Below are positions 1,189-19,586 of a stretch of DNA of 64,000 nucleotides, in pieces. The position numbers and the translations under genes are program-made. Origin of the DNA: an uncultured Methanosarcinales archaeon (lineage in GTDB: Archaea > Nanobdellota > Nanobdellia > Woesearchaeales > GW2011-AR9). Each line of letters begins with the position of its first letter. Position 1 is the first letter of the stretch. The stretch covers positions 13,739-77,738 of the forward strand of contig CAZRZP010000002.1 in assembly GCA_964604645.1 (NCBI GenBank). The letters are read 5' to 3'. Under the pieces are notes generated by a model, which ran no database searches, was not told where the DNA came from, and saw only the letters and a list, made by a program, of their open reading frames with translations.

Positions 1189-3240
1189 ATGAAAAGAGGA
1201 CAGATAACAGTTTTTATAATCGTAGGTATAGTCGTCCTTTTTGTTTTCCTATCTTTATTTGCATTAAATGCTAAAGTTCAGGAAGCAGCATTAACAGATG
1301 AACAGGAAAGAATTTTTTCAAAAGCGTTCTATAAGGAAGGATTAAGGTTATTCGTAGAAGATTGTTTAGAAGATGAAATGAGTGAATCATTATTATTAAT
1401 TGGTAAGCAGGGAAGAATTTGGAAAGAGCAAGGCGGTTTTATTGAGTTTAATGATATAACGGGTAAAGAAATTCAGAACGAAAAGATTGCTTATGGTATT
1501 AAAAAAAAAGAATATTCTGAACCGGATGCTTATCCTTGTAAAAATGCTGATAACCCAACTAAATATTGTGAATATAAATATCCTGATGAAGCGCATTTTG
1601 GAAAAAAGCAGAGTCTTTCTTTGATAAATATTGAAAGAGATATCCAAGGTTATTTGAAGAAAAGTACAGTTGAATGTGTAACAGAATTTTTGGAGGAAAA
1701 GAAAGAATTAGCTAATGTTAATATTAAACCAGGAGAATTAACTATTAAATTAACAACTTTATTTGACGGATTTTCTGTTAAAGTGGATTATCCTTTAAAA
1801 TTTTCAGTTGGTGAGCAAGAATTTTTTACATTATCTAAATTTGATTTTTTTTACCCTTCCCAATTTCCAAGATTTTTCAGGCAAGCTGTCTCTGAACCGA
1901 TTTATTGGGACACTAAAGTAGTTTATTTTGATTATAGTAAAGAAACAATTCAAAAAGGTGGATTTGAACTGATAACGGACGGCGCGAAAACCCCAATTAC
2001 TTTTCCTCTGACTGGTTTAACTGGCATTACTATAGATAAAGATAATAAAGGTGATTTTACAGTTTTTACAATCAAATATCCGTATAAAGAAATTGTTTCT
2101 ATACCTGCTGAATCTACGGGACTTATTCCTAAAGAGTATACTTATTCTTTTATTAGAGAAAATAGGCCACCGGCTGTAGATTATGTTTCACAGTTAAGTT
2201 GTGTAGATGCTAAACATGATTATGTTGTGATTAAAGGAGATGCTAAGTACGGTTCATTGAAGATTATTGCTGATGCTAAAGATCCAGATGAGGAAAAACC
2301 AAAAATTAATTTGGAAGTTCCTAAAGGATGGGATAGTTATGATGAGAATGATAAGGATGAGTTGATATTTGAGATGAATGATTTTTCAAAAATTACTGCA
2401 GATATGTATACATTTACCATTTCAGCTTCTGATGATCAGAAATTATCTGATAAGCAGGAGATAAAAGTTTTGGTAATGGATAAGGAGGAAGGAGAGATTA
2501 GTGTTGAGACTCCTTTTAAGGACGCTGATGGAAAACAGATTGAGTATATCTCTTTAGAAGATCCATTCTTTGTTAAGGTTGATAAAGAAGCAGCAGTTGT
2601 TTTAACACAAGGCGGTAAATCAATTGATTATACTTTTTCTGCAGGAAGTTATGTTTGGCCGAATGCTGATTGTAAAAAAGAAGATTTTGAAAAAAGTAAG
2701 TGCGCTTTACCTGTAACTTTTGTAAATAAGAATTTAAATGTTGGTCCTGTAGAAGTTGCGTTAAAATCAAGTAAAAAAATCTGTACTGAAAATATTGATA
2801 CTTCTAAAAAAGTTAATGTTGAAGTGAAAGAATGTATTCCACATAAAAATTCTAAACATCCTTTTGGTTTCCCGTTTCATAAACTAGATGAAAATGGAAA
2901 TATTGGAAACGATATTCATCCTTTCTTAGCGACTCATGCTTGCTGCTCACTAGCTGGAAAAATTGAACCCACTTCAACAGTTTGCTATAAAGGAGATATT
3001 TTCTGTGATAATGGTCCAACTTTAAAACAAAAAGTGAAGTATTGTGATAATAGAAGAGGAAATACTTGTGATGGAACTACTGGTTCAGCTGATTACAAAC
3101 CAAATAAACGACCGGTATGTGGAGATCCAACGAAATATCCTTCTTGTCAAAATAAAGGCGTTGATGTGTCTTGTTACGGAAAGGAAGTTGGAAATGTAGG
3201 TCAAGGAACTTGTGACATTAAGTGTCAATATACCATATGA
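1189..3240 (+). CDS. Large Cys-rich surface protein with class III (type IV pilin-like) signal peptide
   Basis: N-terminus MKRGQ followed by a ~22-residue hydrophobic helix; C-terminal 150 aa very Cys-rich, similar in style to the upstream protein. Confidence 0.6.
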   Translation: MKRGQITVFIIVGIVVLFVFLSLFALNAKVQEAALTDEQERIFSKAFYKEGLRLFVEDCLEDEMSESLLLIGKQGRIWKEQGGFIEFNDITGKEIQNEKIAYGIKKKEYSEPDAYPCKNADNPTKYCEYKYPDEAHFGKKQSLSLINIERDIQGYLKKSTVECVTEFLEEKKELANVNIKPGELTIKLTTLFDGFSVKVDYPLKFSVGEQEFFTLSKFDFFYPSQFPRFFRQAVSEPIYWDTKVVYFDYSKETIQKGGFELITDGAKTPITFPLTGLTGITIDKDNKGDFTVFTIKYPYKEIVSIPAESTGLIPKEYTYSFIRENRPPAVDYVSQLSCVDAKHDYVVIKGDAKYGSLKIIADAKDPDEEKPKINLEVPKGWDSYDENDKDELIFEMNDFSKITADMYTFTISASDDQKLSDKQEIKVLVMDKEEGEISVETPFKDADGKQIEYISLEDPFFVKVDKEAAVVLTQGGKSIDYTFSAGSYVWPNADCKKEDFEKSKCALPVTFVNKNLNVGPVEVALKSSKKICTENIDTSKKVNVEVKECIPHKNSKHPFGFPFHKLDENGNIGNDIHPFLATHACCSLAGKIEPTSTVCYKGDIFCDNGPTLKQKVKYCDNRRGNTCDGTTGSADYKPNKRPVCGDPTKYPSCQNKGVDVSCYGKEVGNVGQGTCDIKCQYTI

Positions 3241-3656
3241 TATTAGAAATATCCATAATCATCATTGTTATCGGGGTAGTTGTATATCTTTTAAGAAAAA
3301 AAATAAAGAAAGTTGTGGAAGAAATACTGCATCCTGAACATCCATTGTGGTGGCTTTTACCTTCAGGAAGACAAGAAGAATTTAGACGAAAAAGACAAAT
3401 TAGAGAAAATAAAATTAAAATTCAAAAAGAACAATTATATCTGAAACAGCATGGGTTTCATGTGAGAAATTTATCACATCCGGATTTTGAAAAATTAAAT
3501 AAAATAATTCATACTCATCAACTTTCTAAAGTAGTTAGAGGAACGTTTGATAACTTAGATCAACTGATAAAGTTACTTGAAAAGAAGACTAGACAAAATA
3601 TAGAAGCTGAAGCGATAAAAGGTTCGTTAGATAAGCTAAGGAAAATGATCAAATAG
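3237..3656 (+). CDS. Small N-terminally membrane-anchored protein with charged coiled C-terminus (hypothetical)
   Basis: ATGA stop/start overlap with the previous gene at 3237-3240; single TM helix; K/E-rich tail. Confidence 0.4.
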   Translation: MILEISIIIIVIGVVVYLLRKKIKKVVEEILHPEHPLWWLLPSGRQEEFRRKRQIRENKIKIQKEQLYLKQHGFHVRNLSHPDFEKLNKIIHTHQLSKVVRGTFDNLDQLIKLLEKKTRQNIEAEAIKGSLDKLRKMIK

Positions 3657-3669
3657 TCTCCCAACAACA

Positions 3670-3677
3670 TTTATAAA
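3670..3677 (+). promoter_or_regulatory. TATA-like box (tttataaa) upstream of the giant surface protein gene
   Basis: AT-rich motif 28-35 nt upstream of ATG 3705. Confidence 0.3.
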
Positions 3678-3704
3678 GCATAACTGTTTCTTTCTGACGT
3701 ATAG

Positions 3705-6700
3705 ATGGTCAACAAAAAAAGAGGTATCTTTTTTGTAGTTTTAGCGCTAGTGCTAGCTTTTTCTGTGAATGCTCAAACGGGTTGTGATATTGATCCGGCT
3801 TCCAGTACATTTTGTACATCAATTACTATTGATAATCCAATTCCTGGTAAGTTTATTGCAGGTGCTGCTTGTGATACTGTTGATGAGTGTGAAGAAGTCA
3901 GATGCGACCATGCTGATACTGCTGTTCTTCAATGTCAAGTCATGGAACTTGAGAAATGTAAATTTCTTGGAAAGCAAAAAAATGGGATAGAGGGAAAAGC
4001 AGTTACTCAGGAATCATTATGTACGGTGCAAGGCTGTTGTGAAGTTTCTAAGGGTGATAGCTGTACAGTTGTACAAACAACAAAAATTGGGTGCAATTAC
4101 ATTGGAATTTCTGGAGCTAAATTCACGAAGATGGTCGGCGGAAAATGCGGAACATGCAGCGGCGACTTAAAAAAAGTTTCAATTGCCTTTAAAGTTGTAG
4201 ATAAAGATGGAGCAGTTCAAGATGTTTCAGTAACTCCAATTGGTGGAACTGCTGTTAAAACAGATAGTAAGGGTGAAGTTGTTTTCAAAGATTTGTTGGC
4301 AAATGCAGATGCTCCATATGTGTTTAGCGTTTCAAAGTCTGGATATGTAGATCAATCTATTTCTGTAAAAACTGCAGATAAAGATATTGAGAAAGATGTT
4401 AAATTAGTAAAAATTGAAGGGGTTTTAGATTTAACTGTTAAAGTTTTAGATTTACAAAACAAACCAGTGACAGCGACAATATCACTTAAAGGGACTCAAT
4501 CACCTTCCCCAAAGGAAGGTTCTACTGTTAAATTTGATCAACTTCCAGCTGGAAAATATGATATTACTGCTTCAGCTGCCGGATATGAATCGCAGAAAAA
4601 AACTGAAACTTTTCAGAAAGACACAACACCTACAGTTACATTTCAACTAAAACCTACATCAAAAGTTGGAGTTACGGTAAAAACAGTTAGAGATAATCAG
4701 CCACAGCCAGGTGCAGAAATTTTCTTAAACGGTAAGTTTCACACCATATCACAATATCCAAATGGAGATAAATTCATTCCTTTGATAGTTACTAAAGACG
4801 GTCAAAAATTTACCATTTCAGCTAAATATAAAGAATATGCGAGTGATCCTTTAACTTTTACAATTAATAAAGGTCAGCAATTGACTAAAACTTTAATCTT
4901 GAAAAAGACAAAGGGAGAATGTACAATTGACGGAACTAACCCAACTAAAAAAGTTGCTAAATTAGATGGGAAAGCTGCTAAGGGTAAGGAAGAAGTTGAA
5001 TTAACTTGGACTAAACCCTGTCCGGAAGTTGATGGATATAAGCTGATTAAGGAATATAAGAAGGGAGATAAGGATGTAAAAGAGGAATTTACCTTACCTC
5101 TTGCACAAACAAAATTTTCCGATTCTGATGTAGAGTGGGGGGAAACATACAAATATTCAATTAAAGTAATTTATACTGATGGTAAAAAAGATGGAACAAC
5201 TGGAACTAGAATCTCAGAAGAAACATCAGTAGATGTTACTTTAGGTGCGGAAGCTTGTGCTGGTTTGTCTGTTGGTACACAGTTCTGCGATCCGAAAGAA
5301 CCAAATAAAATAAAGATTTGTGGCTCTAAACAAGAAATAATTGCTGGTGCCACATGTCAATCTGGTTTTTACTGCTCACCTTCTGGGAAAGGAGTTGCAT
5401 GTAAATCTGATGCTCAATGTAAAAAAAACAATGGTTTATTTTCATTATTTTCCACTAAAGAGAAATGTTATGGTTCTTTTACGGGAGGAAAACCAGCAAA
5501 TTTCTGTGTATATCAACCAACAAAATCTATTGTAAATTCATGTAAAAGTTGTGCAGATAAAGAAAAACCAATAAAATCATGTTACGATTATACTTCTGAG
5601 GATGCTTGTAAAGTTAACAGTTGTTTAACGGAAAAATGTAATTGGGTGAAACCTGGGCAAGCTGATGACGCGGTAATATCGGATTTTGGAAGTATTTATC
5701 AAGGTTATGATGAAAAATCAATGTTTGCCTTACCAGATTTTGGAAAAGGTTTCTGTGTTCCTGAAAAGAAATATGAAGCAAAAGATAAATGTGGATTATG
5801 TTCAAATGACGAAAAGATTTTTAACAATTTTTTCTGCACTGCGGATATTTGTACTGGATTAGGGTCTTGTTATTCTCAGTATAATTTGAATGAATGTAAA
5901 ACCTGTTCGGATATTCCAACTAGTAAAAACAATTGTGCTCAATATAAGACCAAACAAGAATGTACTGGAGGAAATGATAAATCTGGTGTTTCTAAAAATA
6001 CATTTGAAGTAATAGCTGGCTCTGAAGATAATTGTGCTTGGAACCGGTGTGGTTGGGATACAGATTCATTAAAATGTTTTAAAGATGGAAATGCGAATAA
6101 AAAATCTGATTGTAGTGAATTAAATGACGAAAGCGGAAATTGTAGAATTGACATAACTCCACCGGTAGCAAAATTGTTGACTAAAGATTTATCAATAATT
6201 TCACTTGGTGAACCAAAAGTTCAAATTGAAGTTGATGATACTCATGCAGTTAATAAAAAAACTCCTCAAAACTTACATTCACAAAGAAACAAAATAAAAG
6301 AATTAAAATATTGTTTAACTCCAGCTGTTGGAACAGATACTTGCACTTCTGATAAATATACCACTTTTTCATTTGATAATACTTTCTTATTCAAAGGAAC
6401 TGCTGATATAGATATAGCGAAACATTTTACTAAACCTATTCCAGGAATATTATACAAACTAAAATTCTTTGCTTTAGACAAATACCTTAATCAGGGAGAT
6501 GTGCAGGAATCATTACTCTTTATAGATACAACAATTCCTGATTTTAAAATTAATACGCAAGAAAATGTAATAGGAGATAAGGTTCAATTAACTGCTTACC
6601 TTTCAGATTTATCTGAACCGGCTTCATGTAAATTTTCTATTAAGCCAATAATAGCTCAAGATACACATACGCCGATTGTAGCAGCAAGAAAAGATAATGT

Positions 6701-9700
6701 AAAGCAAGCTAAGTTTACGTTAAGTGGAGTTCATTACGAATTAATTGTTGAATGTGTTGATGATTTTGGTAATAAGCAGGAGAAGAAGAAATCTTTAGTT
6801 TTCAATTTAGATCAAAAAATTCAAATAATTGCTCCTAAAATGAAACAAGTTCTTTCTAAGACTAGTTTACAGTTTGAAGTTAGAACAACTGTAGCTGCCG
6901 ATTGTGTTTTACAGCAAGTTAAACCGACAGCTCAACAAAAGGCAATCTTCAATAAACAAGACGGAACAACTTCTAAACATCACAAGACGGCTTTCATACA
7001 TGGATTTACGCAAGGAGAATATGCAGCTGCTTACAAAGCTGTTTGTACTGAACAATTAAACCCTAATGCCAAAAAGGTAGAAGCACATTTCCACTTCATA
7101 ATTGATTTCCTTTCTCCAAATACTAAAATTACTTTAGAAGAAGGTAGCAGGAAAGTTACTCCTATAAAATACGGTTGGGAAGAAATATTTGTAAATGAAG
7201 CTGAAGTAACTCTTGCATGTGATGCTGGATCTACTGGTTATCAATGTGACAAGATTAAATATTGTTTAGGAAAAGGTTGCAGTAACCCTAAAGACACAAA
7301 GTATCAAGATTACTCATCTACATTCTCAGTTAAGAAATCTACTCCTATTTGTTATTATTCAACTGATAAGGGGGGTAGTAAATTTCCAATAGTTTACTGT
7401 GGAGATATTTTAGTAAATGGTTTTGGAATTACCATGGAAAAACCTGAACCTCAGTTAATTGATGGTGAAGTTTGGGGATTCAGTTCCAAACCTAAGTTTG
7501 ACTGGCAACTAATTACTTTAGTTCCTTCTTTAGAATGCGCGTTTGATTTCAAGAAAGGTTTTGATTTTAAGAAAGTGTCAGCTAAACAAAAATTAACTAA
7601 AGATAAAGGGAAATATTTGTTTAAACAGTTCCCTGGAACCCTGCCGGCTTTTGATAGTAAGGGAAGCGTAAAAGAAGTATTCGTTAAATGTAATAATGCA
7701 GGAGAGATTAGTCCTGAACAGAAATTCTTTTTAGAATTTGATCCAACTCCTCCTAAAATCTTGGAAGCTAAAGCTACTCCAAAATCTCTAATTGAAGGAA
7801 ATTCTGTTCAATTAATGATAAAAACTGATGATCGTAGCATTTGTAAATTTTCAGATACTTCAAATAGCAAGTCAAGTGCAGAATTTCAAGCAATGAAATT
7901 TTCTTTTGCAAAAGATAAAGCCGGTAAGCCAATTTTTGGAAAAGAGCATAAAATTCCATTTGCAATTTCTTTTAAAGGTAAAAAGAAAAATTTCCGTCTT
8001 ACAACTCAATGTCAAAATGGGGCGGGTTTGTTAAGTAAACAGAAAGATATCTTATTTTCGGTTGATTATACGGTTGCAGGTAATATTGAAAAAATTTCAC
8101 ATGAAGGTGGTTATGTTAAAGATAAAAAAACTACTTTGAAAGTAAACACTAACAAAAATGCAAATTGTGAATATACAATTGACGGAAAAACAAAGAAATT
8201 TGATAAAACTGGTGGAACGGAACATAGTACTGTAATTGATTCCAGTAAGGAAGGAAAATATACTATTCCGGTTAAATGTACAATGGGTAAACAAGTTGCG
8301 AATGGTAAAGCTGGGTTTGAAGTTGACAGAACTGCTCCTAAAGTAAATAAAATTGATGATGGATTATACACTTGCGGTGCTGAAAACCTCTCAGTGATGG
8401 TTTATACTCAGGAAAAGAAAATTGCAAATTACGAATATGAAATCTATGATCATGGAGAAACTAAAAAAATTGGTGTGAAAAAGGTTTCAGGAATAGATTA
8501 CCCTAAATTAATTGCAAGTCCAAAATTAGTTCAAACAAAAAAAGTAGGAAAAAATACACCTTTGAAGATTAACATTCGTTCACTTTTCCCTGGCAAGAAT
8601 TTAAGTGATTTCTTTAATCATACATTACATGTTAAAGTCAGAGCTTCTGATGAAGCAGATAATATTGGAAAATATAACAAAAGTGATGGGTTCTTTTTGG
8701 TAAACAGTACTCATCCGGCTTGTGTTAAAGATACCTCTGCCCCTATACTTACAGTAAATCCTGTAGAAATCAAATCTTGTGAAGAGAGAGCAGTTAAAAT
8801 TACTTGTGAAGATGAAGTTGGCTGTAAAGAAATAGCATATGGAATTTCTGTAAAACCTACTTGTAATGCAACTGCACAATATAATGGTAAAAATATTTTA
8901 TTTAATACAACTTCATACTTATGTTATCAAGCAAACGATACTGTTAACAATAAAGCAACTGGAAAAGATTTAATTAAAGTTCCAGATGAAGATGGTGATG
9001 GGATTTTAGATTCTTGTGATAAATGTCCTAAAACGAAAGCTGGGAAGATAGCAGACGGGCAGGGTTGTACTGCTGGCCAGACGGCTTTAAATGAAACAAC
9101 TGGTAAAACTAATTTAACTGCCGCTCAGAAAAAAATTGATTCAGACAGTGACACTTTACCTGATGCTTGGGAGGATTATTATGATTCTTTAAGTTGCGAA
9201 TTAGATTCAAAGAAAGCTGATTCAGATGGCAATGGTATTTTGGACGGAGCTGAAGATTACGATAATGATGGTGCATCAAATTATCAAGAATATCTTAGCG
9301 ATACAGATCCGTGTGTAGAAGATGACGATTTCTTATTTGATGATACAAAGAAATTACCTGGAGCCACTCCTGTTACTGATGATAAAGCAGATAAACCTAC
9401 TACGCCAACTCTTCCTGGAGAAACAAAAAAAGAAACAGATTATCTGCCGTTAATATTATTCATTATTGGTTTATTGATGGTGTTAGGTGGAACTGGTTAT
9501 TTAATTTATTATTATAAATATAAGCAGCCTGAACCAACAACAGCTAAACCTTCTTTTAAGCCAAAAATAGCTGAACCATTACCTGAAAAAATAAGTCCAG
9601 CATTAAGAGGTCGGCGGAAAAAATTAAGGGAAAGAGCAAGAGAATCCATCTTTGGTTTATTCAGTAAAAAATCAGATACAATTCCACATGTCGAATCTGC

Positions 9701-11576: not shown

Positions 11577-11578
11577 TA

Positions 11579-12651: not shown

Positions 12652-12679
12652 ATAAAACAACAGCAACATTTATATATGA

Positions 12680-12704: not shown

Positions 12705-12727
12705 GTTAACTGGATAATAAGAGGTGA

Positions 12728-13069: not shown

Positions 13070-13332
13070 TGATGAAGAAAGCTACTAGCCAGATGTTATG
13101 GGTTGTAGTTGGAGCGGTCATGGCTTTAGTTGTTTTGACTGTTTTATTATTTATTTTTACCAAAAATACCGGGAAAGTACAACTCGGCTTTGAAGATTGT
13201 GCAAGTAAATCCGGCCAATGTATAACAAAAGCTAAATGCAGTAATCAAGAAGGTCGGGTGATACCAACTTTTTCCTGCAATAATGATCCTGACGTTTCAG
13301 ATGATAATAAAAAAATCTGTTGTTTCCCATGA
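13069..13332 (+). CDS. Small pilin-like protein with Cys-rich C-terminus
   Basis: TGATG overlap; MMKKATSQM + hydrophobic helix; 7 Cys in the last 45 aa. Confidence 0.5.
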   Translation: MMKKATSQMLWVVVGAVMALVVLTVLLFIFTKNTGKVQLGFEDCASKSGQCITKAKCSNQEGRVIPTFSCNNDPDVSDDNKKICCFP

Positions 13333-13346
13333 GAGAAACTGTCGAA

Positions 13347-13421
13347 ATGATAGCAAAGTTAATCCTTCTGGCAGTCGGAGCGGGAGTGCTTTTCTTAATA
13401 ATTTGGCGACTAAATCCATAA
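13347..13421 (+). CDS. Possible 24-aa single-TM micropeptide
   Basis: ATG-initiated MIAKLILLAVGAGVLFLIIWRLNP lying between two pilin-like genes; too short to call with confidence. Confidence 0.2.
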   Translation: MIAKLILLAVGAGVLFLIIWRLNP

Positions 13422-13444
13422 AAGGAACGACCGCCGTTTCTAGT

Positions 13445-13552
13445 ATGTTAGTTTATCTACTGATAGCGGCAATTGTGTTGATTATCATATTTTTTTTAGT
13501 TGGAAGAAATGCAGATTTTGGTAAAAGTATCATTCAGGGGTTATTTAGCTGA
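13445..13552 (+). CDS. Possible 35-aa single-TM micropeptide, translationally coupled to the next gene
   Basis: MLVYLLIAAIVLIIIFFLVG...; its stop overlaps the ATG of the 13552 gene (TGATG). Confidence 0.25.
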   Translation: MLVYLLIAAIVLIIIFFLVGRNADFGKSIIQGLFS

Positions 13553-14313
13553 TGGGATTAGGTTCTGTACTGGTGGGGCTTATTGTTACTTTGCTATTGT
13601 TTAGTGTGATTTATTTTGGTTTCTTAGATTCAGATACTGGTGCAATTTTTTTAGCGGATGATGCTTACCGTCAGCAGCTAGAAAATGCTTTAGCTAAAGA
13701 AAAGAAAGAATTTCAAGTGAAGGAAAATACTGAACTTCTTGATAGGTTTGTTTCTGATATTAATAAAATGAAAGGTAAAAAAGCTTGTTTTGCAAGTTAT
13801 ACTCCATTTCCAGCTCTACAAAATAAAAAAATTGACATCAGTTACTCGAGTGGAAATACAAGAATTAGATTTTGGGATGGCAAACAATCAATTGCTAAAC
13901 AAGATTTAGACATAATTCCTTGTGTAATTGGAGGATCAGGTAGTGTAACAAAAAACTTTGATGATATTTATCTGAATAATAAAGATTGGAAAGAAAAAAT
14001 CAAACAAATTAATAGTAACCATTACACAATTGCCGGTCAAATTACCATTTCGGAGGATGACGGTGGAGTTTCAGGTTTAACAGAAAATAGAATTAATTAT
14101 GGTCATGGGGTAGTAGATTTTGAAGATGCAAACTACTTATACACGCCAGATGGAAAACATATATGTTTCTTTCCAACAGTAGATGGTGATGATACTTGTG
14201 ATGGTTTCCAACAAGAAGGGTTAGATGATGATTGTTTAGGGGAAGCCGATGTTTCTGACACTAACTCTATTCCAAGCCAATTAGCAGAAGGAAAATTAAA
14301 AAGATGTAGTTAA
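13552..14313 (+). CDS. Membrane-anchored secreted protein (pilin-like N-terminal helix)
   Basis: N-terminal hydrophobic helix MGLGSVLVGLIVTLLLFSVIYF; Asp/Cys-rich C-terminus. Confidence 0.5.
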   Translation: MGLGSVLVGLIVTLLLFSVIYFGFLDSDTGAIFLADDAYRQQLENALAKEKKEFQVKENTELLDRFVSDINKMKGKKACFASYTPFPALQNKKIDISYSSGNTRIRFWDGKQSIAKQDLDIIPCVIGGSGSVTKNFDDIYLNNKDWKEKIKQINSNHYTIAGQITISEDDGGVSGLTENRINYGHGVVDFEDANYLYTPDGKHICFFPTVDGDDTCDGFQQEGLDDDCLGEADVSDTNSIPSQLAEGKLKRCS

Positions 14314-14336
14314 CTATTAAAAAAACTATTAAAAAA

Positions 14337-15239
14337 ATGAAAAGACCTATCTCAAAAATAATTAGGACTAAAAAAGGGGGAGTTCCTTACACTTTAGTGA
14401 TTTTTATAGGTGTAATTCTAAGTGCAGGAGTTTTGTTATATTTAGTATCTTTAATTATATCTGGATTTGGGGAAAAATCAGTTGAAGAAGTTTGTCGCGG
14501 TAATGTAATTTTTAGAACGTCAGAGTTTTTTGGAGATCAACGTTTAGGTCCGCTTTTATGTCAAACCCAAAAAGTTGAGTTAAGGGGTAATAAGGAAACT
14601 GTTAAAGAACAGATAGCTGAACTGATGCGGAAATGTTGGTATATGTTTGATGAAGGGAAAAGTATTGACGCTTTAGATGGAGAATCAGTTAAGAAAGCAT
14701 TAGGTTGGGAAGATAACAAAAATGGTTGTTTTACTTGTTTCATTGCTGATACTGCTAAAATTGATGGTGGACCGATTTTACCTCACGAATTATTTACTTA
14801 CTTAGAAGATGTAGATCACCCAACTGCTAAAGGCTTAAAGTATTTAGATTATATCCAGTCTTACGGTGGCGATGGTGCGGTTCTAACATTAAGTCCAGTT
14901 ATGGATAATCAAGTTTATGGAATTTCATTTTTATCAAAATCAAAAGATGACAGTAAGTGGACTTGGGGTGACAGCGCAGCTACGGCAGCTTTGGTTACCG
15001 GCACTTTAGCAGTTAAAGCCGGAGTGGCTATTTGCGGGACAGTTATTGGCTGTCCAGTTGGTGTTATTGTTGGTGGTGCTGGTGCCGCAGTTACAGGACT
15101 TGGTTATTTAGCTACAGGAGCATATCATGATGCGAAAAATTTAATTTATGAAGAAGAAAGAGCTGTAAGTACAATTACTTTTGATACACTACAATCGATT
15201 GAAAGGGCTGGATGTGAACAAAAAGAGGGGATACGATGA
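14337..15239 (+). CDS. Pilin-like secreted protein with C-terminal Gly/Ala-rich hydrophobic segment
   Basis: RTKKGGVPYTLVIFIGVILSAGVLLYLV; C-terminal region GTVIGCPVGVIVGGAGAAVTGLGYLATG. Confidence 0.55.
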   Translation: MKRPISKIIRTKKGGVPYTLVIFIGVILSAGVLLYLVSLIISGFGEKSVEEVCRGNVIFRTSEFFGDQRLGPLLCQTQKVELRGNKETVKEQIAELMRKCWYMFDEGKSIDALDGESVKKALGWEDNKNGCFTCFIADTAKIDGGPILPHELFTYLEDVDHPTAKGLKYLDYIQSYGGDGAVLTLSPVMDNQVYGISFLSKSKDDSKWTWGDSAATAALVTGTLAVKAGVAICGTVIGCPVGVIVGGAGAAVTGLGYLATGAYHDAKNLIYEEERAVSTITFDTLQSIERAGCEQKEGIR

Positions 15240-16600
15240 AAAAAGGATTTATTGGCGGGAAAATAGTTGATTTGATAATAGCTTTACTTATTTTATTAGC
15301 ATTAGGAAGTTTCTTTTTTGATATTGAAGATATAAGAGGTTTTTTTGGAGAAACAGCTGCAAAAGTAAAACTAGATTGTGATGCAGATGGGGTTGGTTAT
15401 CCATTAGATAAATGTCCTTGTTTAGATGAAGGTAAAATCCGTAATTCAGATAGATCTCTATTGGGCTGTCCATCTGCCATAAAAAATTCTAAGGAAGCGG
15501 CAAAGGATAAAGATACTTGTTATAAATATGAGCATGACGGGAAATTTTTTGATAAATGTCAGGCAGATGATAAAACTGATTGTTTAACTAGATGTGAAGC
15601 AATGCATTTCAAAAGTGAAAAGGAAACTGAACAGAAATTAGCTGCTTTGGATACCGAGAGTGATTTAGTTATTTCTGATTTAAAAATAGATGGAAAGACG
15701 ATTGAGGAACATAACGGAAAATATAAGATTGATTTCAGCGGTGCCCCAGACAAACCAATAAATTTAGAGGGAAGTATAAGTAATTTAGGTACTGAAGCAG
15801 TTACAAGAACGTTCTTTTTGAAAATAAATATATGTGAACTTAAAACTAATGGTAGGTGTAAAACTAAAATAGTTTATAATAATGATTTTAGTGGAAATAA
15901 ACTAGCTTTTTCTGAAACTCTTGCACCAGGACACAAACAATCTTTTGATTTTCATACTCTTGTAGGCTACAAAGGAGATTATTGTGATAGCAAGAAAGAA
16001 AGCGAATGTATATTAGAATTAATTATAGACCCAGATAATGAAATTGGAGAGATAGGAGAAACTAATAATAAACAGAAATTAACTTTATCTGTAGAGAATC
16101 AATTAGTTTCAAATTCATTCAAGAGATTTCAGATTGAAATAATCAATGCCGGACCTAAAGATGGACCTCTAATACAAAGGTATTGTCCAATAGAATTAGG
16201 AGTACCAGACTATGCTGATTGCCTCTTGAAATTATCACAAGAATACCAGGGTGTTGATGGAGAATTTCCAAAAAATATCAGGAGCGATGGCAATTGTTGG
16301 GTGTTAAGTACTGATTTTGATGTTATTGATGAAGATGTTGGAGCGGGTGCATTTAAACAAGGTTATGTTATCAAGCATATCTCTAGTCAACATTTGAATC
16401 CATTTGAAATATATCACGAGACGGATGAAGATTCAAAAAATAATTTTATTGATCAAAGTAGAGTTTGGCAGGCAGATTCTAAAGGGGATTTAATTTGCAA
16501 TAAGAATTTTTGGAACTTATGCGATCAAGTCAATCAAGATCAAATTTTATTCATAGGAAGTACACCGTACACTTGTGATGGTAAGGAATGGAAACAATAA
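15236..16600 (+). CDS. Pilin-like large secreted protein (class III signal peptide)
   Basis: MKKGFIGGKIVDLIIALLILLALG; ATGA overlap with the upstream gene. Confidence 0.55.
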   Translation: MKKGFIGGKIVDLIIALLILLALGSFFFDIEDIRGFFGETAAKVKLDCDADGVGYPLDKCPCLDEGKIRNSDRSLLGCPSAIKNSKEAAKDKDTCYKYEHDGKFFDKCQADDKTDCLTRCEAMHFKSEKETEQKLAALDTESDLVISDLKIDGKTIEEHNGKYKIDFSGAPDKPINLEGSISNLGTEAVTRTFFLKINICELKTNGRCKTKIVYNNDFSGNKLAFSETLAPGHKQSFDFHTLVGYKGDYCDSKKESECILELIIDPDNEIGEIGETNNKQKLTLSVENQLVSNSFKRFQIEIINAGPKDGPLIQRYCPIELGVPDYADCLLKLSQEYQGVDGEFPKNIRSDGNCWVLSTDFDVIDEDVGAGAFKQGYVIKHISSQHLNPFEIYHETDEDSKNNFIDQSRVWQADSKGDLICNKNFWNLCDQVNQDQILFIGSTPYTCDGKEWKQ

Positions 16601-16603
16601 ACA

Positions 16604-17269
16604 ATGGGAAAAATTACCAAGCCAGGCAAAAGTAAAGGATTCATACTTTCAGCACAAGAATTAGTTGGTTTGGTAATTATAGTAATTATTATAGTATTTC
16701 TTACTTCGCTAGGTTCTAAATATTCTGAGTTATTTTTAGAAGATAATGCTGGTGAAAGAGATTTAAACAATTTTATGGATGAAGTTATTAAATTTTCAGA
16801 AAAAGCTAGAGATAATAGTGTGAAAGCTACGTCCATCCGTTTACCTGAAAAAACTGCGCTGTTTAGTATTTGGAGTAATTATAAAAATGAGGTGGTCCGT
16901 TGTTCAGACTTTGAAGAGCATTGGCTTAATCCAGGTGAGAAATGTAAAGGGGATTGTGTTTGTTTGTTAAGAGTTAAAAGTTCTGAATTTAGAGAAGCAG
17001 GTGGAGATACTGGAACTCAAAAAGGAATGGCTTGCGGTACACCAAAATCTGTAAAAGATATTACTCCAGAAGTGATTGCTTGTCGTGAAGTTCCGAATGA
17101 TTTCTTGTTTTATGGGGTTGATTGGGTAGCATGGGATAATTTTGCTGGTGATAGGGGTAAGAATTTAGCCATGAATTTTGTTAAAAAAAATAATACGGTT
17201 TATGTTTGTAAAAATCCGCCTTGTAATATTCCAGTTAATCCAATTAAACATCCTACTAAATCCAAATAA
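16604..17269 (+). CDS. Pilin-like secreted Cys-rich protein
   Basis: KSKGFILSAQELVGLVIIVIIIVFL. Confidence 0.5.
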   Translation: MGKITKPGKSKGFILSAQELVGLVIIVIIIVFLTSLGSKYSELFLEDNAGERDLNNFMDEVIKFSEKARDNSVKATSIRLPEKTALFSIWSNYKNEVVRCSDFEEHWLNPGEKCKGDCVCLLRVKSSEFREAGGDTGTQKGMACGTPKSVKDITPEVIACREVPNDFLFYGVDWVAWDNFAGDRGKNLAMNFVKKNNTVYVCKNPPCNIPVNPIKHPTKSK

Positions 17270-17270
17270 A

Positions 17271-17663
17271 ATGAATAAAAAAGCTTTTGAGATGAGTGCC
17301 ATCGCTATCGTTAAATTAGTGGCAGTAATGTTATTAGCAATGGTAGCTCTAAATATTGTTATTACTTTTGGAGGGAAGGATGCAGCTATAATTAAAACAA
17401 CAAGTGAAGATATCAGGATGATGGTAAATGTTCTTGCAGGAATTTCTGGAGATGCTGTTGTTAAATACCCTCAAGATCTTGCTGGATACAAGTTAGAATT
17501 GACTTCTGCTAGTATTTCAATAACTGCTGACGCAAGTCCTCATTACACTTTTTTTTCATTACCAGATAAATTTATTGCTAAAGGTAAGATAGAAAATACG
17601 AAAGAAGTTTGTTTATTCAAAAATAAACGCGAAATAGTTTTGAGTGGGTGTGCAAATGGATAG
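17271..17663 (+). CDS. Small pilin-like protein, MNKK family paralog
   Basis: MNKKAFEMSAIAIVKLVAVMLLAMVALNIV; the ORF-track start at 17178 overlaps the previous gene, so the start is placed at the internal MNKK ATG (17271). Confidence 0.5.
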   Translation: MNKKAFEMSAIAIVKLVAVMLLAMVALNIVITFGGKDAAIIKTTSEDIRMMVNVLAGISGDAVVKYPQDLAGYKLELTSASISITADASPHYTFFSLPDKFIAKGKIENTKEVCLFKNKREIVLSGCANG

Positions 17664-17672
17664 GTGTGGAAA

Positions 17673-18113
17673 ATGAATAAGAAGGGACAAACAACAACTT
17701 CAGAAATTGTACTCTGGACTTTTGTAATACTTATTTTTTCTTTTCTAATGATTCTTCTAACTTTTGGTGTATTATCTTTTCATAACAAATTAACTTTTGT
17801 TCCTACTCAAACAGCAGCTCAATTTACAACTTTCCGTTTTACTGAAAGTCCAGATTGTTTTCTTTATCCAAATTCAAAAATTATTGATTTAGCAGAATTT
17901 ACTAATGATAAATTAGCTAAATGTTATCAAACTGAACCAATTGGTGGATTAGATACGTTCAATTTTAGATTGAAGTTAGAGAAAGCTGATGTAGAAATTA
18001 CTACGGATAAATATCGTAATAAAGATGATTTCTCGATAATTAGGGATGTTGTTGTTAAAGATGGAGAGAAAGTAAGTAAAGATACGTTGATAATCTACGT
18101 TCAGGAAGTTTAA
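17673..18113 (+). CDS. Small pilin-like protein, MNKKGQ family paralog
   Basis: MNKKGQTTTSEIVLWTFVILIFSFLMILLTF. Confidence 0.6.
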   Translation: MNKKGQTTTSEIVLWTFVILIFSFLMILLTFGVLSFHNKLTFVPTQTAAQFTTFRFTESPDCFLYPNSKIIDLAEFTNDKLAKCYQTEPIGGLDTFNFRLKLEKADVEITTDKYRNKDDFSIIRDVVVKDGEKVSKDTLIIYVQEV

Positions 18114-18114
18114 A

Positions 18115-18537
18115 ATGAATAAGAAAGGACAGACAGCAAGCATAAATTTCTTTGATGTATTTTTATTGCTGTTGTTTAGTGTGATTTTTTTTGTATTGTT
18201 CCACTTTTCATTGGTTCTTCTGGAAAATAATCATGAAGTAAAAGCAGCTGAGAATACTGGAGATTTTTCAAAAATATTTTCTGCGATAACAAGTTTACGT
18301 AGCCAACTTTACACAGGAAAATTAAGTGTCGATACTAATCTACAACAAAGAATTCAAGAAAGTGAACTTATTGAAGGGGTTGTTATTACTTCCTGCTTTG
18401 ATTATCCTCGTAAGGATTTGTGTGAAGCAGATCCGCTTAATGTAGGGATAAAACAGATTGCAAAATGTAAATGGGACCGCAATATTTGTGATGAAATTTC
18501 ACAAGAACCAGTAATTCCACATGGTCCACTCAAATAA
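18115..18537 (+). CDS. Small pilin-like protein, MNKKGQ family paralog
   Basis: MNKKGQTASINFFDVFLLLLFSVIFFVLF; start context almost identical to that of the previous gene. Confidence 0.6.
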   Translation: MNKKGQTASINFFDVFLLLLFSVIFFVLFHFSLVLLENNHEVKAAENTGDFSKIFSAITSLRSQLYTGKLSVDTNLQQRIQESELIEGVVITSCFDYPRKDLCEADPLNVGIKQIAKCKWDRNICDEISQEPVIPHGPLK

Positions 18538-18539
18538 AA

Positions 18540-19586
18540 ATGAATAAAAAAGGCTTCGTATTTTGGGCAGGAGTGATTTTCATAGCGATTGCTTTCTTTA
18601 CTTTTATCAGTTTAACAAGTGATGAATTAAAAACAATGACTGTAACGGGAGAATGGCAAGCTGAGTTCATTAATTCTTTATACTTGCCGGCAGAAGAAAA
18701 ACAATTGAAAAATGAGATTGAAGTTATGCATCAAGCTCATCTTACCATAAAAGAATTAGCACAACAAGGTGGATTCATAAAAGCATCTAAATGTGGTAAA
18801 ACTACAGTTAATAAATGGAATTCTCCTAAAGAAGAATGTTTTCCGGATGTAAATGGCAATTTTGCTCAAACGATTAAAGGAAAAATAAACAAGAATTACA
18901 ATAATCTCAAATTTCAAGATGGACTTATGCTTGCAGAAGGACCAGTTGATTTAATAAAAAATAAATTAGGAAGCTATTCTTATAGTACTAGCTTGGCTTT
19001 ACCAATGAAGTATTCTTTAGATGAATATTTATTACTATTTTCAATTTCAAGGGAGTTAATTCAAAAATGTTCAGTGAAAGTACCGTTGCAAAGTTGTTTA
19101 AATGATAATAAACCAGCAAAATGGGATTATACTTCTTGTTCTTCACCCCAATTTTCTTCAGCTTCAAAAGTAATTCCTTTTTGTGTTGAATCTTCAACTG
19201 TAAAAGGTCCTATCTATTACCATTTTGCTTTAGACTTTTCATCAGATCAACCTCAACCTGTATTAACAGCAAATTTGAAGCAAGAATCGGGAAAAATTAT
19301 AATTAACTTTCAACATTCAGGAAATAAGTTTAAAGTATATTACACTGATGGAACTTATTTGAAAAACAAAAAAGGAAAAGTAGGAGAAATATTTAATCAA
19401 AAAATCGATGCATTTGGTTATTTCTGGGACTCAAAAGAATTTACTGTACCGATTTGTAATAAAGAAACCTGTGCTGTTTCCTTAAATCTGGAGGATGGGA
19501 AGATTCAAGGCGAAATATTAGTGGGAATCACTGAATTGAAAGAAGGAAAAGAAAGTTTAATTGATCAGTTACTTATAGTCAAATAG
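18540..19586 (+). CDS. Pilin-like secreted protein, MNKKG family paralog; last gene of the island
   Basis: MNKKGFVFWAGVIFIAIAFFTF. Confidence 0.55.
   Translation: MNKKGFVFWAGVIFIAIAFFTFISLTSDELKTMTVTGEWQAEFINSLYLPAEEKQLKNEIEVMHQAHLTIKELAQQGGFIKASKCGKTTVNKWNSPKEECFPDVNGNFAQTIKGKINKNYNNLKFQDGLMLAEGPVDLIKNKLGSYSYSTSLALPMKYSLDEYLLLFSISRELIQKCSVKVPLQSCLNDNKPAKWDYTSCSSPQFSSASKVIPFCVESSTVKGPIYYHFALDFSSDQPQPVLTANLKQESGKIIINFQHSGNKFKVYYTDGTYLKNKKGKVGEIFNQKIDAFGYFWDSKEFTVPICNKETCAVSLNLEDGKIQGEILVGITELKEGKESLIDQLLIVK

What the first reader, a model, noticed from the sequence alone, without database searches (positions are those of the whole stretch)
1189..19586. 18-kb co-directional island of at least 17 class III signal peptide (archaeal type IV pilin-like) proteins with no assembly machinery in view
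Almost every gene from 1189 to 19586 encodes a protein whose N-terminus is a short basic stretch ending in [KR][GA]Q (KRGQ, NKGQ, KKGQ x4, KKAQ, KKG) followed by a 20-25-residue hydrophobic helix. This is the signature of archaeal prepilin-peptidase (PibD/FlaK/EppA-type, +1 Gln) substrates. Sizes range from 96 to 2076 aa. Genes are joined by ATGA/TGATG overlaps, indicating one or two long operons. No PilB/FlaI ATPase, TadC/FlaJ platform or prepilin peptidase lies within 64 kb. The set is far larger and more heterogeneous than a normal pilus operon. It looks like a dedicated, rapidly diversifying surface/attachment apparatus, possibly for host-cell contact in a small-genome archaeon.
Basis: partly seen in the sequence, partly recalled or inferred. 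Interest (0 to 1): 0.8.

Follow-up and report, generated by a model that had tools for sequence, protein, structure and literature searches.

The report
Conserved Woesearchaeal pilin-like surface-apparatus operons
This is not a variable island but a roughly 23-kb, 22-gene locus kept in the same gene order across many Woesearchaeota (tiny, probably symbiotic archaea); it encodes about 16 different pilin-like membrane proteins and two giant surface proteins, none matching any annotated family, and is a concrete candidate for their cell-surface or attachment machine.

Summary
In the window, 15 of 18 island ORFs carry a short basic leader ending in [KR][GA] followed by a hydrophobic helix, against 1 of 54 ORFs elsewhere.

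No FlaI/PilB ATPase, FlaJ/TadC platform or A24 peptidase was found in the window or 10 kb beyond either end. No ATPase-like motif was found near the homologous locus in 67 other genomes.

The "rapidly diversifying island" reading is wrong. Gene order A-B-(C)-D-E-F-G-H | I-J-K1-K2-L-M-N-O-P-Q-R-S-rpa is conserved across dozens of Woesearchaeota/Nanoarchaeota species. The leader motif is conserved in the orthologues, with +1 Gln in 86-98% of motif-bearing F, G, H and I orthologues. Population variants differ by only 1-8 SNPs.

- **Extent:** the locus starts upstream of the window with a 1675-aa gene. It also contains two uncalled helix-only genes, K1 and K2.
- **Two halves:** E-J have N-terminal helices more conserved than the rest of the protein (pilin-like). 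L-S helices behave like plain anchors, but their KKG leader is conserved.
- **Giant D:** a type I membrane protein with a cytoplasmic tail, not a pilin.

No protein matches any Pfam or NCBIfam pilin model. The confident F model has a 47-residue N-terminal helix and an otherwise unmatched fold.

Best reading (about 0.55): an EppA/Epd-like type IV filament apparatus whose assembly machinery is encoded elsewhere.

The parts
1..1157 (+). A: C-terminal 385 codons of a 1675-aa Cys-rich (56 Cys) giant surface protein. The gene starts 3.9 kb upstream of the window. N-terminus: MYKKRGLILVVLVLLVVLSTVVVA|DTYY.
   Evidence: L010 4942-9969, identical DNA, no internal stop. No Pfam or NCBIfam hit. Sequons 2 observed against 15.4 expected.
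1189..3240 (+). B: 683 aa, leader MKRG|QITVFIIVG. A large pilin-like protein with Ig-like (adhesin-type) domains and 20 Cys.
3237..3656 (+). C: 139 aa, N-terminal TM anchor plus a basic cytoplasmic-type domain; no [KR][GA] motif. In most other genomes this position holds a protein of about 350 aa with a Sec signal and Cys-rich sequence.
3705..9935 (+). D: 2076-aa giant with 76 Cys. Order of features: KKRG leader, about 1850-aa ectodomain (CarboxypepD_reg Ig-like domain), P/T-rich stalk, TM helix 1911-1936, then a basic cytoplasmic tail of about 140 aa. This is type I membrane topology.
   Evidence: PF13620, E = 7e-10. C-terminal TM plus a tail of about 150 aa (about 235 aa in the divergent clade) in 48 of 49 orthologues; the one clear exception to the sequon depletion (11 observed, 13.5 expected). 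KRG conserved in 65 sequences.
9935..10498 (+). E: 187 aa, MLSKKG|MAIGQIFIFIVAAV. Minor-pilin-like core subunit.
   Evidence: 64 orthologues; mature residues 1-30 have identity 0.59 against 0.43 for the rest.
10488..11576 (+). F: 362 aa, MANKG|QVQVTFNW.... The most widely conserved subunit. It has a 47-residue N-terminal helix, a beta-domain and a C-terminal 3-helix bundle.
   Evidence: AF2 pLDDT 92.6, pTM 0.87; no pilin or other significant PDB match; 1807 clusters at 50% identity; conservation ratio 1.65.
11579..12094 (+). G: 171 aa, ...KQKKG|QVQMSETIAVMFIFF. Minor-pilin-like core subunit.
   Evidence: ratio 1.41; +1 Gln in 57 of 58.
12091..12651 (+). H: 186 aa (TTG start), ...KSKKA|QMEIIGLVVIV. 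Minor-pilin-like core subunit and the last gene of the first operon.
   Evidence: 134 homologues, Woesearchaeota/Nanoarchaeota apart from three labelled only 'archaeon' or Hodarchaeota; Q10 and E12 invariant; ratio 1.57; the H-I junction is where foreign minus-strand genes are inserted in other genomes.
12728..13069 (+). I: 113 aa, MMMKKG|QGLSLNVIIVAALALIVLVVL. Best candidate for the major shaft subunit. It follows the largest intergenic gap (76 nt) and has a GAGGTGA ribosome-binding site.
   Evidence: N-terminal 33 residues almost invariant in 33 species, C-terminal part variable, 4 conserved Cys; ratio 1.81, the highest..
13069..13332 (+). J: 87 aa, MMKKA|TSQMLWVVVGAVMALVV. Paralogue of I.
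   Evidence: hhalign I against J, 98.6% probability over 57 columns; ratio 1.44.
13329..13421 (+). K1: 30-aa helix-only peptide, MRETVEMIAKLILLAVGAGVLFLIIWRLNP, not called by gene finders. Its start overlaps the J stop codon (ATGA).
   Evidence: Orthologues of 38-45 aa carry KKG/QRG leaders, for example MKFNKKGVDWTSPTTLVIVIIGALLGFFLIFYFIKLKGRLLP. The window copy itself lacks the G.
13403..13552 (+). K2: 49-aa helix-only, Flp/EpdE-like peptide with a TTG start: MATKSIKG|TTAVSSMLVYLLIAAIVLIIIFFLVGRNADFGKSIIQGLFS.
   Evidence: Orthologues read MNKKGMEMWQLVLIILA...GLLDKLGxLL in more than 20 loci. The start codon is inferred.
13552..14313 (+). L: 253 aa, N-terminal TM helix without the basic/[GA] leader.
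   Evidence: motif in 3 of 35 orthologues; ratio 0.74.
14337..15239 (+). M: 300 aa, ...RTKKG|GVPYTLVIF, with a second TM helix at 226-250.
   Evidence: motif in 37 of 39; leader identity 0.73, helix 0.33.
15236..16600 (+). N: 454 aa, MKKG|FIGG..., 18 Cys, a weak CARDB hit and a TSP3-like DxDxDG motif (motif recognised by eye, not tested).
   Evidence: CARDB, E = 8e-4, below the curated cutoff; consensus GDcDkDgv.N.fDkCPC; motif in 20 of 20.
16604..17269 (+). O: 221 aa, ...GKSKG|FILSAQELVGLVII.
   Evidence: Only 5 BLAST-recognisable orthologues, but an ORF of similar size sits at the same position in most loci.
17271..17663 (+). P: 130 aa, MNKKA|FEMSAIAIV.
   Evidence: motif in 31 of 32.
17673..18113 (+). 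Q: 146 aa from the ATG (the ORF opens at GTG 17664), MNKKG|QTTTSEIVLW.
   Evidence: (146/149-aa calls).
18115..18537 (+). R: 140 aa, MNKKG|QTASINFFDVF.
18540..19586 (+). S: 348 aa, MNKKG|FVFWAGVIF. Last gene of the locus; rpa follows after 88 nt.
   Evidence: S followed by rpa in about 20 loci; motif in 29 of 30.

Best explanation
The locus is a lineage-wide pair of operons in Woesearchaeota (GTDB phylum Nanoarchaeota): A-H and I-S. It encodes the structural parts of a type-IV-filament-like surface organelle.

Shown here:
- About 16 distinct protein families carry a 4-14-residue basic leader ending in [KR][GA], often followed by Gln, and then a hydrophobic helix.
- The motif and the gene order are conserved across dozens of species.
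- All products are membrane or extracellular proteins with even Cys counts.
- No cytoplasmic ATPase is encoded in or near the locus.

Inferred mechanism:
- The leaders are removed by an EppA/PibD-type prepilin peptidase encoded elsewhere.
- E-F-G-H have family-specific N-terminal helices that are more conserved than their globular parts. They form a priming or tip complex, comparable to bacterial minor pilins.
- I and J, and the helix-only K1 and K2, polymerise as the shaft. This would be driven by a FlaI/PilB-like ATPase and a FlaJ/TadC platform encoded elsewhere, as in Methanococcus Epd pili.
- B is a modular pilin that displays Ig-like adhesion domains.
- L-S are leader-bearing, membrane-anchored accessory or adhesin proteins. 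They diverge fast, so the leader serves for processing or targeting rather than for packing in a filament.
- A and D are giant Cys-rich surface proteins. D is anchored by a C-terminal TM helix with a cytoplasmic tail and may couple the apparatus to the cell, or it may be the main envelope protein.

Probable role: attachment to surfaces or to host cells.
For: - Motif enrichment: 15 of 18 island ORFs against 1 of 54 elsewhere.
- Motif conservation in orthologues and +1 Gln in F, G, H and I.
- The leader matches published EppA substrates: a 5-13-aa leader ending in Gly with +1 Gln; small and large pilins co-exist; pilus genes lie in at least 4 separate loci (PMC3875500).
- Archaeal TFF 'system 1' is reported in some DPANN archaea and is noted for its variety of pilins (bioRxiv 10.64898/2026.04.22.720090).
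- Synteny holds in 67 loci.
- The N-terminal 30 mature residues are 1.4-1.8 times more conserved than the rest in E-J.
- The families resemble each other only through their N-terminal 25-55 residues, as pilins do.
- The F model has a continuous 47-residue N-terminal helix at pLDDT 92.6.
- B has Ig-like domains.
- K1 and K2 are helix-only, Flp/EpdE-like genes.
- Cys counts are even in all proteins.
- FlaI, FlaJ and FlaK homologues are reported as annotated in Woesearchaeota genomes (PMC8407392).
Against: - No island protein hits PF04021, PF07790 or any pilin model in Pfam or NCBIfam.
- By my own reading of the sequences against the strict FlaFind +1..+4 pattern (recalled from memory), only B fits; polar residues follow the cleavage site in the other families.
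- +5 Glu is not conserved.
- The globular part of F resembles no solved pilin.
- In L-S the helix is less conserved than the rest of the protein (ratio 0.7-0.9).
- No ATPase-like motif ORF lies within 10 kb of the locus in any of 67 genomes. Whether this genome has the machinery at all could not be checked.
- One paper states that T4P components are missing in DPANN genomes (bioRxiv 10.1101/2020.05.14.094862).
- Cleavage, filament formation and function are untested.
Confidence: 0.55

Rival explanations
1. A non-filamentous envelope or attachment complex. The N-termini are uncleaved type II signal anchors, or are cleaved by a different protease. The products, together with the C-terminally anchored giant D, form a fixed multi-protein surface layer or junction. 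This would be S-layer- or bindosome-like rather than a pilus.
For: - D has the architecture of an archaeal S-layer glycoprotein: ectodomain, P/T stalk, TM helix and tail. It is the one clear exception to the sequon depletion.
- L-S helices evolve like plain anchors.
- No pilin HMM is hit and F has no pilin fold.
- The locus is conserved with one-to-one orthologues beside housekeeping genes, as expected for a core cell structure.
- No ATPase-like motif ORF is nearby in 67 genomes.
- DPANN genomes are said to lack T4P components.
- A presenilin-type GxGD protease (PF06550) is adjacent to the locus in 3 divergent genomes.
Against: - A plain anchor does not explain near-invariant Gly/Ala at -1 and Gln at +1 in families that share nothing else.
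- It does not explain why E-J helices are more conserved than their ectodomains.
- It does not explain the helix-only K1 and K2 peptides.
- The Sulfolobus bindosome, the closest precedent, still depends on PibD and a Bas ATPase (PMC3047682, abstract seen).
Confidence: 0.25
2. A pseudopilus for DNA or macromolecule uptake or secretion (Com- or T2SS-like), functionally linked to the adjacent recombination genes rpa, hjc and radA.
For: - The gene set resembles a pseudopilin set: four consecutive minor-pilin-like genes E-H plus small shaft candidates.
- rpa directly follows S in about 20 loci.
- In the window, an Hjc-related nuclease with an N-terminal TM helix and RadA follow rpa.
Against: - Only the rpa adjacency is conserved. 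hjc was found in 1 other locus and radA in none.
- RPA is a general replication protein.
- No ComEC-like channel, secretin or ATPase is nearby.
- The giants and the Ig/CARDB-type domains point to adhesion.
Confidence: 0.08
3. Ordinary Sec/SPase I secreted proteins, or a strain-variable adhesin island; the motif is a by-product of Lys-rich n-regions in an AT-rich genome.
For: - A, D and the position-C proteins of other genomes have short h-regions followed by small-x-small sites typical of SPase I.
- The outer components (A, B, N, O, R, S) are only 26-29% identical between species.
Against: - The motif occurs in 1 of 54 other ORFs of the same AT-rich window.
- Hydrophobic stretches in the non-giant motif-bearing proteins span about 25-36 residues in the hydropathy scan, with no SPase I site evident.
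- Synteny is conserved across species and the population is nearly clonal here.
Confidence: 0.07

Closest known systems
Methanococcus maripaludis Epd pili / archaeal TFF 'system 1' (EppA-processed pilins, DUF361)
   Same: - Short basic leader ending in Gly, with +1 Gln.
- Many pilin-like proteins of very different sizes, including very short ones.
- Structural genes lie apart from the ATPase and platform genes.
- System 1 is reported in some DPANN archaea (PMC3875500; bioRxiv 10.64898/2026.04.22.720090).
   Different: - No match to PF04021/DUF361 or any pilin HMM.
- +5 Glu is not conserved.
- No EppA gene in the operon.
- About 16 families plus two giants in a fixed order, against about 10 scattered genes.
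- N-glycosylation sequons are strongly depleted here, whereas Epd pilins are glycoproteins.
Bacterial minor-pilin / pseudopilin sets (GspH-I-J-K, FimU-PilVWX, ComGD-GG) and modular pilins such as Streptococcus sanguinis PilB
   Same: - Four consecutive genes (E-H) for pilin-like proteins of different size, related only through the N-terminal helix.
- A large pilin-like protein (B) carrying adhesion-type domains (PMC8179133 for the modular-pilin concept).
   Different: - No sequence or fold similarity.
- Archaeal context.
- Not next to an ATPase or platform gene.
- Far more subunits.
Flp/Tad pilins and the Epd major pilin EpdE (pilins without a globular domain)
   Same: [quoted passage not shown]
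   Different: - No Flp motif.
- The K1 copy in the window lacks the Gly.
- Not shown to be translated.
Sulfolobus bindosome (class III signal peptides on non-pilin surface proteins; PMC3047682)
   Same: Class-III-type leaders on proteins that need not form a filament; this is a possible model for L-S.
   Different: - No substrate-binding-protein domains.
- No adjacent Bas-like assembly genes.
Archaeal S-layer glycoproteins with a C-terminal TM anchor (for D only; architecture recalled from general knowledge)
   Same: Large ectodomain, P/T-rich stalk, C-terminal TM helix and normal sequon density.
   Different: - 76 Cys.
- A cytoplasmic tail of about 150 aa.
- A conserved KKRG leader.
- Embedded in a pilin-like operon.
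- No sequence homology tested positive.

Membership tests
Archaeal class III (type IV pilin-like) signal peptide proteins | Short positively charged leader with [KR] at -2 and G/A at -1 | tested here: met
   Present in 15 of 18 window ORFs and conserved in orthologues: -3 is K/R in 89%; per-family motif counts are E 57/62, I 43/45, N 20/20 and S 29/30.
Archaeal class III (type IV pilin-like) signal peptide proteins | Hydrophobic stretch of about 20 residues directly after the cleavage site (strict FlaFind +1..+4 pattern, recalled from memory) | tested here: inconclusive
   A hydrophobic helix of at least 18 residues starts within 9 residues in all cases. By my own reading of the sequences, only B fits the strict +1..+4 pattern; F, G, H, I, Q and R have 2-8 polar residues first.
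Archaeal class III (type IV pilin-like) signal peptide proteins | Match to curated models (PF04021 Class_IIIsignal/DUF361, PF07790 Pilin_N, NCBIfam archaeal pilin/flagellin N-terminal models) | tested here: not met
   No such hit, even at E <= 10 on the N-terminal 45-mers. None on the full proteins in Pfam or NCBIfam.
Archaeal class III (type IV pilin-like) signal peptide proteins | Cleavage by an A24 prepilin peptidase (PibD/FlaK/EppA) | not testable with these tools
   No A24 peptidase lies in the window or within 10 kb of either end. The rest of the 402-kb scaffold could not be read.
EppA/Epd-type pilins (TFF system 1) | +1 Gln | tested here: met
   B, F, G, H, I, Q and R in the window. 86-98% of motif-bearing F, G, H and I orthologues. 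The other families have M, L, F, A or D at +1.
EppA/Epd-type pilins (TFF system 1) | +5 Glu | tested here: not met
   Acidic residues occur at +2, +3, +6 or +7 depending on the family. The pooled +5 position is T, Q or W.
Type IV filament system | Dedicated FlaI/PilB-family ATPase and FlaJ/TadC/PilC platform | tested here: not met
   Absent from the window and 10 kb beyond each end. No Walker-A/GEIRD-type ORF in the 67 homologous loci. Presence elsewhere in the genome was not testable. FlaI and FlaJ are reported in Woesearchaeota in PMC8407392.
Type IV filament system | Pilin fold: long N-terminal alpha-helix packed on a beta-sheet | tested here: inconclusive
Type IV filament system | N-terminal helix is the most conserved part of the subunit (filament-core packing) | tested here: met
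   Ratio of identity (mature 1-30 over the rest) is 1.37-1.81 for E, F, G, H, I and J. It is not met for L, M, N, P, Q, R and S (0.71-0.90).

The most novel reading that the evidence does not exclude
Woesearchaeota possess a lineage-specific surface organelle of more than 20 components, built entirely from unannotated protein families. It would be derived from, but no longer equivalent to, a type IV pilus: a conserved pilin-like helical core (E-K), two giant Cys-rich proteins (one spanning the membrane with a cytoplasmic tail) and a fast-evolving set of leader-tagged adhesins (L-S). It would serve as the host-attachment or exchange apparatus of this uncultured DPANN group. It might be processed or assembled by non-canonical machinery, for example a presenilin-type GxGD protease in place of an A24 peptidase.
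Probability: 0.22. Interest if true: 0.85.

Novelty: new variant of a known kind. Interest (0 to 1): 0.6.

Why it matters
Woesearchaeota are among the most widespread DPANN archaea and, to my knowledge, remain uncultured. How they attach to hosts or surfaces is unknown, and one paper even states that DPANN genomes lack type IV pilus systems.

This locus gives a defined, order-wide conserved set of about 22 genes. The F family alone has 1807 clusters at 50% identity in public data, none of them annotated.

The gene set can be searched for in proteomes, modelled as complexes, and targeted by cryo-ET or antibodies.

It also contributes about 18 'dark' families that could be added to pilin/TFF detection models. 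And it shows a class-III-type leader on proteins that do not otherwise behave as filament subunits.

Tried and rejected
- **Pfam and NCBIfam on all island proteins and on N-terminal 45-mers:** nothing beyond CarboxypepD_reg in D and a sub-threshold CARDB hit in N.
- **Profile of the I family against PDB sequences:** only chance TM matches.
- **H-family profile against 5.8 billion proteins:** only the same Woesearchaeal family, with no bridge to known pilins.
- **Search for machinery:**
  - Pfam tables of neighbouring genes.
  - ATPase motif scan of the window and the 67 loci.
  - Pfam on 10 flanking or inserted genes of other loci. These gave SPP, KAP/ATPase_2-HTH, Cdc6, PolD small subunit, TyrRS/TrpRS and CBM9.
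  - Multi-TM/GxGD scan; a 178-aa 5-TM GSGD ORF at 56707 has no A24 match.
- **Look-up of window 29174-31456:** failed, probably because of a start-codon call difference.
- **Cluster-member look-up to name the organism:** returned no names.
- **Rejected: mobile or variable island.** Synteny is conserved and the population is near-clonal.
- **Rejected: tandem-repeat or low-complexity artefact**.
- **Rejected: a functional link to hjc or radA.** That adjacency is not conserved.
- **Not possible:** reading the rest of the 402-kb scaffold, and modelling E, G, H, I and J (prediction cap reached).

Full report
**Source and setting**

The window is archaeal and AT-rich, at 32-38% GC. It encodes RPA, an Hjc-related nuclease, RadA, aRF1, eIF5A, a histone and ribosomal proteins S3Ae, S19e, L31e and L35Ae.

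Window positions 1-21576 are 100% identical to the overlapping stretches of JGI contig Ga0115653_1000253. They are 99.97% or more identical to ENA SUTE22-1_SAMN10231923 scaffold_10, which is 402.5 kb. Homologues of the island proteins come almost only from MAGs labelled Woesearchaeota, Nanoarchaeota or Nanoarchaeia. The organism is therefore a DPANN archaeon of the Woesearchaeota group.

**The observation**

All genes from 1189 to 19586 lie on the + strand. My formal motif test looked in the first 45 aa for [KR][GA] followed within 9 residues by 18 residues of mean hydropathy >= 2.0. It is positive for 15 of 18 island ORFs and for 1 of 54 other ORFs, an ABC-2 permease.

Junctions are tight, mostly -19 to +9 nt. 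The larger gaps are A-B (31), C-D (48), H-I (76), L-M (23) and S-rpa (88).

Four corrections are needed:
- ORF 216-1157 is only the end of a 1675-aa gene, A, that starts 3.9 kb upstream of the window. Its N-terminus is MYKKRGLILVVLVLLVVLSTVVVADTYY.
- C and L have N-terminal TM helices but no leader motif.
- The ORF at 13283-13552 hides two tiny genes. K1 is 13329-13421 (30 aa, ATGA overlap with the J stop). K2 is 13403-13552 (49 aa, TTG start, MATKSIKG|TTAV...). Their orthologues in more than 20 genomes are helix-only peptides of 38-55 aa with KKG leaders.
- The giants A and D have KKRG followed by only about 17 hydrophobic residues and a small-x-small site. Their signal type is ambiguous.

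**Absence of machinery**

Precomputed Pfam hits for all called genes from 19.6 to 64 kb, and for 10 kb beyond both window ends, include no T2SSE, T2SSF or Peptidase_A24.
- Upstream of A lie a small two-gene pair, a MopE-type Cu-binding protein and an RCC1/WD40 protein.
- Beyond the window end lie a DUF87 (HerA-like) ATPase and a presenilin-type signal-peptide peptidase, PF06550.

A Walker-A/GEIRD scan found only RadA in the window. It found nothing ATPase-like in the 67 homologous loci of other genomes.

Every island product has an N-terminal TM helix or signal sequence. The locus itself therefore encodes no cytoplasmic ATPase.

**It is a conserved locus, not a variable island**

B has 26 full-length homologues at 27-35% identity. 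In two of their contigs the same gene order appears: giant, B, (x), giant D, E, F, G, H.... The N-termini there are nearly identical: MKRGQITVFIIVGI in B; [KR]G[ML].IGQVFIFIV in E; GQ..ITFNW in F.

A scan of one genome per GTDB species with an F alignment returned 67 loci, all Woesearchaeota or Nanoarchaeota. Some are TPA records mislabelled 'Methanosarcinales'. BLAST-based synteny shows the order A B (C) D E F G H I J (K) L M N O P Q R S rpa in dozens of them.
- The only recurrent break is between H and I. Unrelated minus-strand genes are inserted there, including a KAP/ATPase_2-HTH protein, Cdc6 and the PolD small subunit. That site coincides with the 76-nt gap in the window. The locus is therefore most likely two operons, A-H and I-S.
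- A divergent clade (L068, L072, L073, L075) keeps only B D E F G H I plus a few small genes.

Within the population the locus is almost invariant, with 1-8 SNPs over 6-21 kb.

Sequence divergence between species is nevertheless high, measured as median identity to the window protein:

| Group | Median identity |
|---|---|
| rpa | 59% |
| E-J | 39-49% |
| A, B, D, L-S | 26-33% |

O and R are often unrecognisable by BLAST, although an ORF of the right size occupies their place. So the core is conserved and the periphery evolves fast.

**Is the leader a processing signal?**

Across orthologues, -3 is K/R in 89% and +1 is Gln in 48% overall. In F, G, H and I, +1 Gln is present in 86-98% of motif-bearing orthologues. 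The motif is present in most members of the other motif-bearing families, for example E, M, N, P and S. In the I family, G6 and Q7 are at least 90% conserved.

This matches the published description of EppA substrates in Methanococcus maripaludis: a leader of 5-13 residues ending in Gly, +1 Gln, and pilins from about 70 to 300 aa. That work also reports pilus genes in at least four chromosomal locations (PMC3875500). A 2026 preprint assigns the Epd-like TFF 'system 1', with its 'high variety of pilins', to methanogens and some DPANN archaea.

Against membership:
- No island protein hits PF04021, PF07790 or any NCBIfam pilin model, even at permissive thresholds.
- +5 Glu is not conserved.
- Most families have several polar residues between the cleavage site and the helix.

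**Two kinds of subunit**

Profile-profile comparison shows the families resemble each other only over the N-terminal 25-55 residues. The exception is I and J, which are paralogues.

Comparing conservation of mature residues 1-30 with the rest of each protein splits the locus:
- E, F, G, H, I and J have ratios of 1.37-1.81, the behaviour expected of pilin alpha1 helices that pack in a filament core or a defined complex.
- L, M, N, P, Q, R and S have ratios of 0.71-0.90, like ordinary anchors. Yet the three leader residues are highly conserved in M, N, R and S (0.73-0.89), which argues for recognition by an enzyme.

I is small (113 aa) and has an almost invariant N-terminal 33 residues with a variable, disulphide-bonded C-terminal part. 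It follows the largest gap and has a GAGGTGA ribosome-binding site. It is the best candidate for the major subunit, with J, K1 and K2 as further shaft candidates.

**Structures**

F was modelled with 56 homologues and gives pLDDT 92.6 and pTM 0.87.
- It has a continuous helix at 13-59, then beta-domains, then a C-terminal three-helix bundle.
- Foldseek against the PDB returns nothing below E = 0.04.
- F therefore has a pilin-like N-terminal helix on an otherwise unmatched fold.

The F family is large. A profile search of 1.84 billion representatives finds 1807 clusters at E <= 1e-3 and 592 at E <= 1e-30, none with a Pfam domain on record.

**The giants**

D carries a CarboxypepD_reg Ig-like domain and 76 Cys. 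In 48 of 49 orthologues it has a P/T-rich stalk, a C-terminal TM helix and a basic cytoplasmic tail of about 150 aa (about 235 aa in the divergent clade). It is a type I membrane protein, not a pilin.

All island proteins have even Cys counts.

N-X-S/T sequons are strongly depleted in the island: 16 observed against 49 expected from shuffles. The rest of the window has 51 against 56.9. D is the one clear exception, with 11 against 13.5.

**Interpretation**

The best-supported reading is a type-IV-filament-like apparatus of the EppA/Epd kind whose peptidase, ATPase and platform are encoded elsewhere.
- E-H would act as a priming or tip complex.
- I, J and K would form the shaft.
- B would be a modular adhesin-pilin.
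- L-S would be leader-tagged accessory surface proteins.
- A and D would be giant surface or anchor proteins.

Shown here are the motif, its conservation, the synteny, the helix-conservation pattern, the topology and the absence of local machinery. Cleavage, polymerisation and an adhesive or host-contact role are inferred.

The main rival is a non-filamentous envelope complex of signal-anchored proteins around D. It is favoured by:
- the lack of any pilin HMM or fold match;
- the anchor-like L-S helices;
- the S-layer-like architecture of D;
- the statement that DPANN genomes lack T4P systems.

It does not explain the invariant G/A-Gln junction or the helix-only peptides. FlaI, FlaJ and FlaK annotations have been reported in Woesearchaeota (PMC8407392). 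I could not check this genome.

**Novelty**

In four full-text literature searches, and in the passages of the four papers I opened for this question, I found no description of this locus. It is a new variant of a known kind: class-III-signal or type IV filament structural loci. It is unusual for its size, its order-wide fixed gene order, its wholly unannotated families, its helix-only genes and its embedded membrane-spanning giant.

Noticed in passing
window 1-19586 (all island proteins): N-X-[ST] glycosylation sequons are strongly depleted: 16 observed against 49 expected from shuffles. A has 2 against 15.4 and most small proteins have 0. Other window proteins show 51 against 56.9. D is the one clear exception (11 against 13.5). 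This suggests selection against N-glycosylation of tightly packing subunits.
   Followed up: partly
window 13329-13421 and 13403-13552: Two tiny helix-only genes (K1, 30 aa; K2, 49 aa with a TTG start) lie between J and L. K1 is not called in any of the assemblies and K2 only as an over-extended 83-aa ORF in one (L003). Orthologues with KKG leaders exist in more than 20 genomes.
   Followed up: yes
window 6-25 (inside gene A): A micro-cluster of 3-6 SNPs within 20 nt separates assemblies from different samples. In JGI 3300009008 (L001) one of them creates a stop codon that splits gene A. The rest of the 6.5-21 kb compared has at most 2 SNPs.
   Followed up: partly
L072 13794-14756 (-), L073 13726-14688 (-), L081 5197-6123 (+), and L014 5702-6571 (about 8 kb beyond the window end): A presenilin-type signal-peptide peptidase (PF06550, a GxGD aspartyl protease) lies next to the reduced form of the locus in three divergent genomes, and about 47 kb from it in this genome. 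It is a speculative alternative processing enzyme for N-in anchored substrates.
   Followed up: partly
window 55233-57929 (+): Three co-directional membrane or secreted proteins (475 aa with 6 TM; 178 aa with 5 TM and a GSGD motif; 228 aa) have no Pfam hit at E <= 1. A DUF87 (HerA/VirB4-like) ATPase lies just beyond the window end. Function unknown.
   Followed up: partly
window 12651-12728 (H-I junction) and the same position in L017, L023, L027, L028, L033, L040, L041, L049 and L062: The H-I junction is a recurrent insertion point for unrelated minus-strand genes (KAP/ATPase_2-HTH protein, Cdc6, PolD small subunit, unknowns). This marks an operon boundary inside the locus.
   Followed up: yes
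window 20685-21086 (+): The Hjc-related nuclease (PF10107 Endonuc_Holl) directly after rpa has a predicted N-terminal TM helix (residues 1-26). BLAST detects it near the locus in only one other genome.
   Followed up: no
L009/L010 1-4874 (upstream of the window): Upstream of gene A lie a small 67-aa + 87-aa gene pair (toxin-antitoxin-like by size and arrangement only), a 668-aa lipoprotein-like protein with a MopE Cu-binding domain, and an RCC1/WD40_RLD protein of more than 794 aa. The surface-protein-rich region therefore extends further upstream.
   Followed up: no
L021-L023, L025, L026, L028 and other loci: Many TPA MAG records that carry this Woesearchaeal locus are titled 'uncultured Methanosarcinales archaeon', and one homologue is labelled Hodarchaeota. 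These are probably placeholder or mis-binned taxonomy.
   Followed up: no
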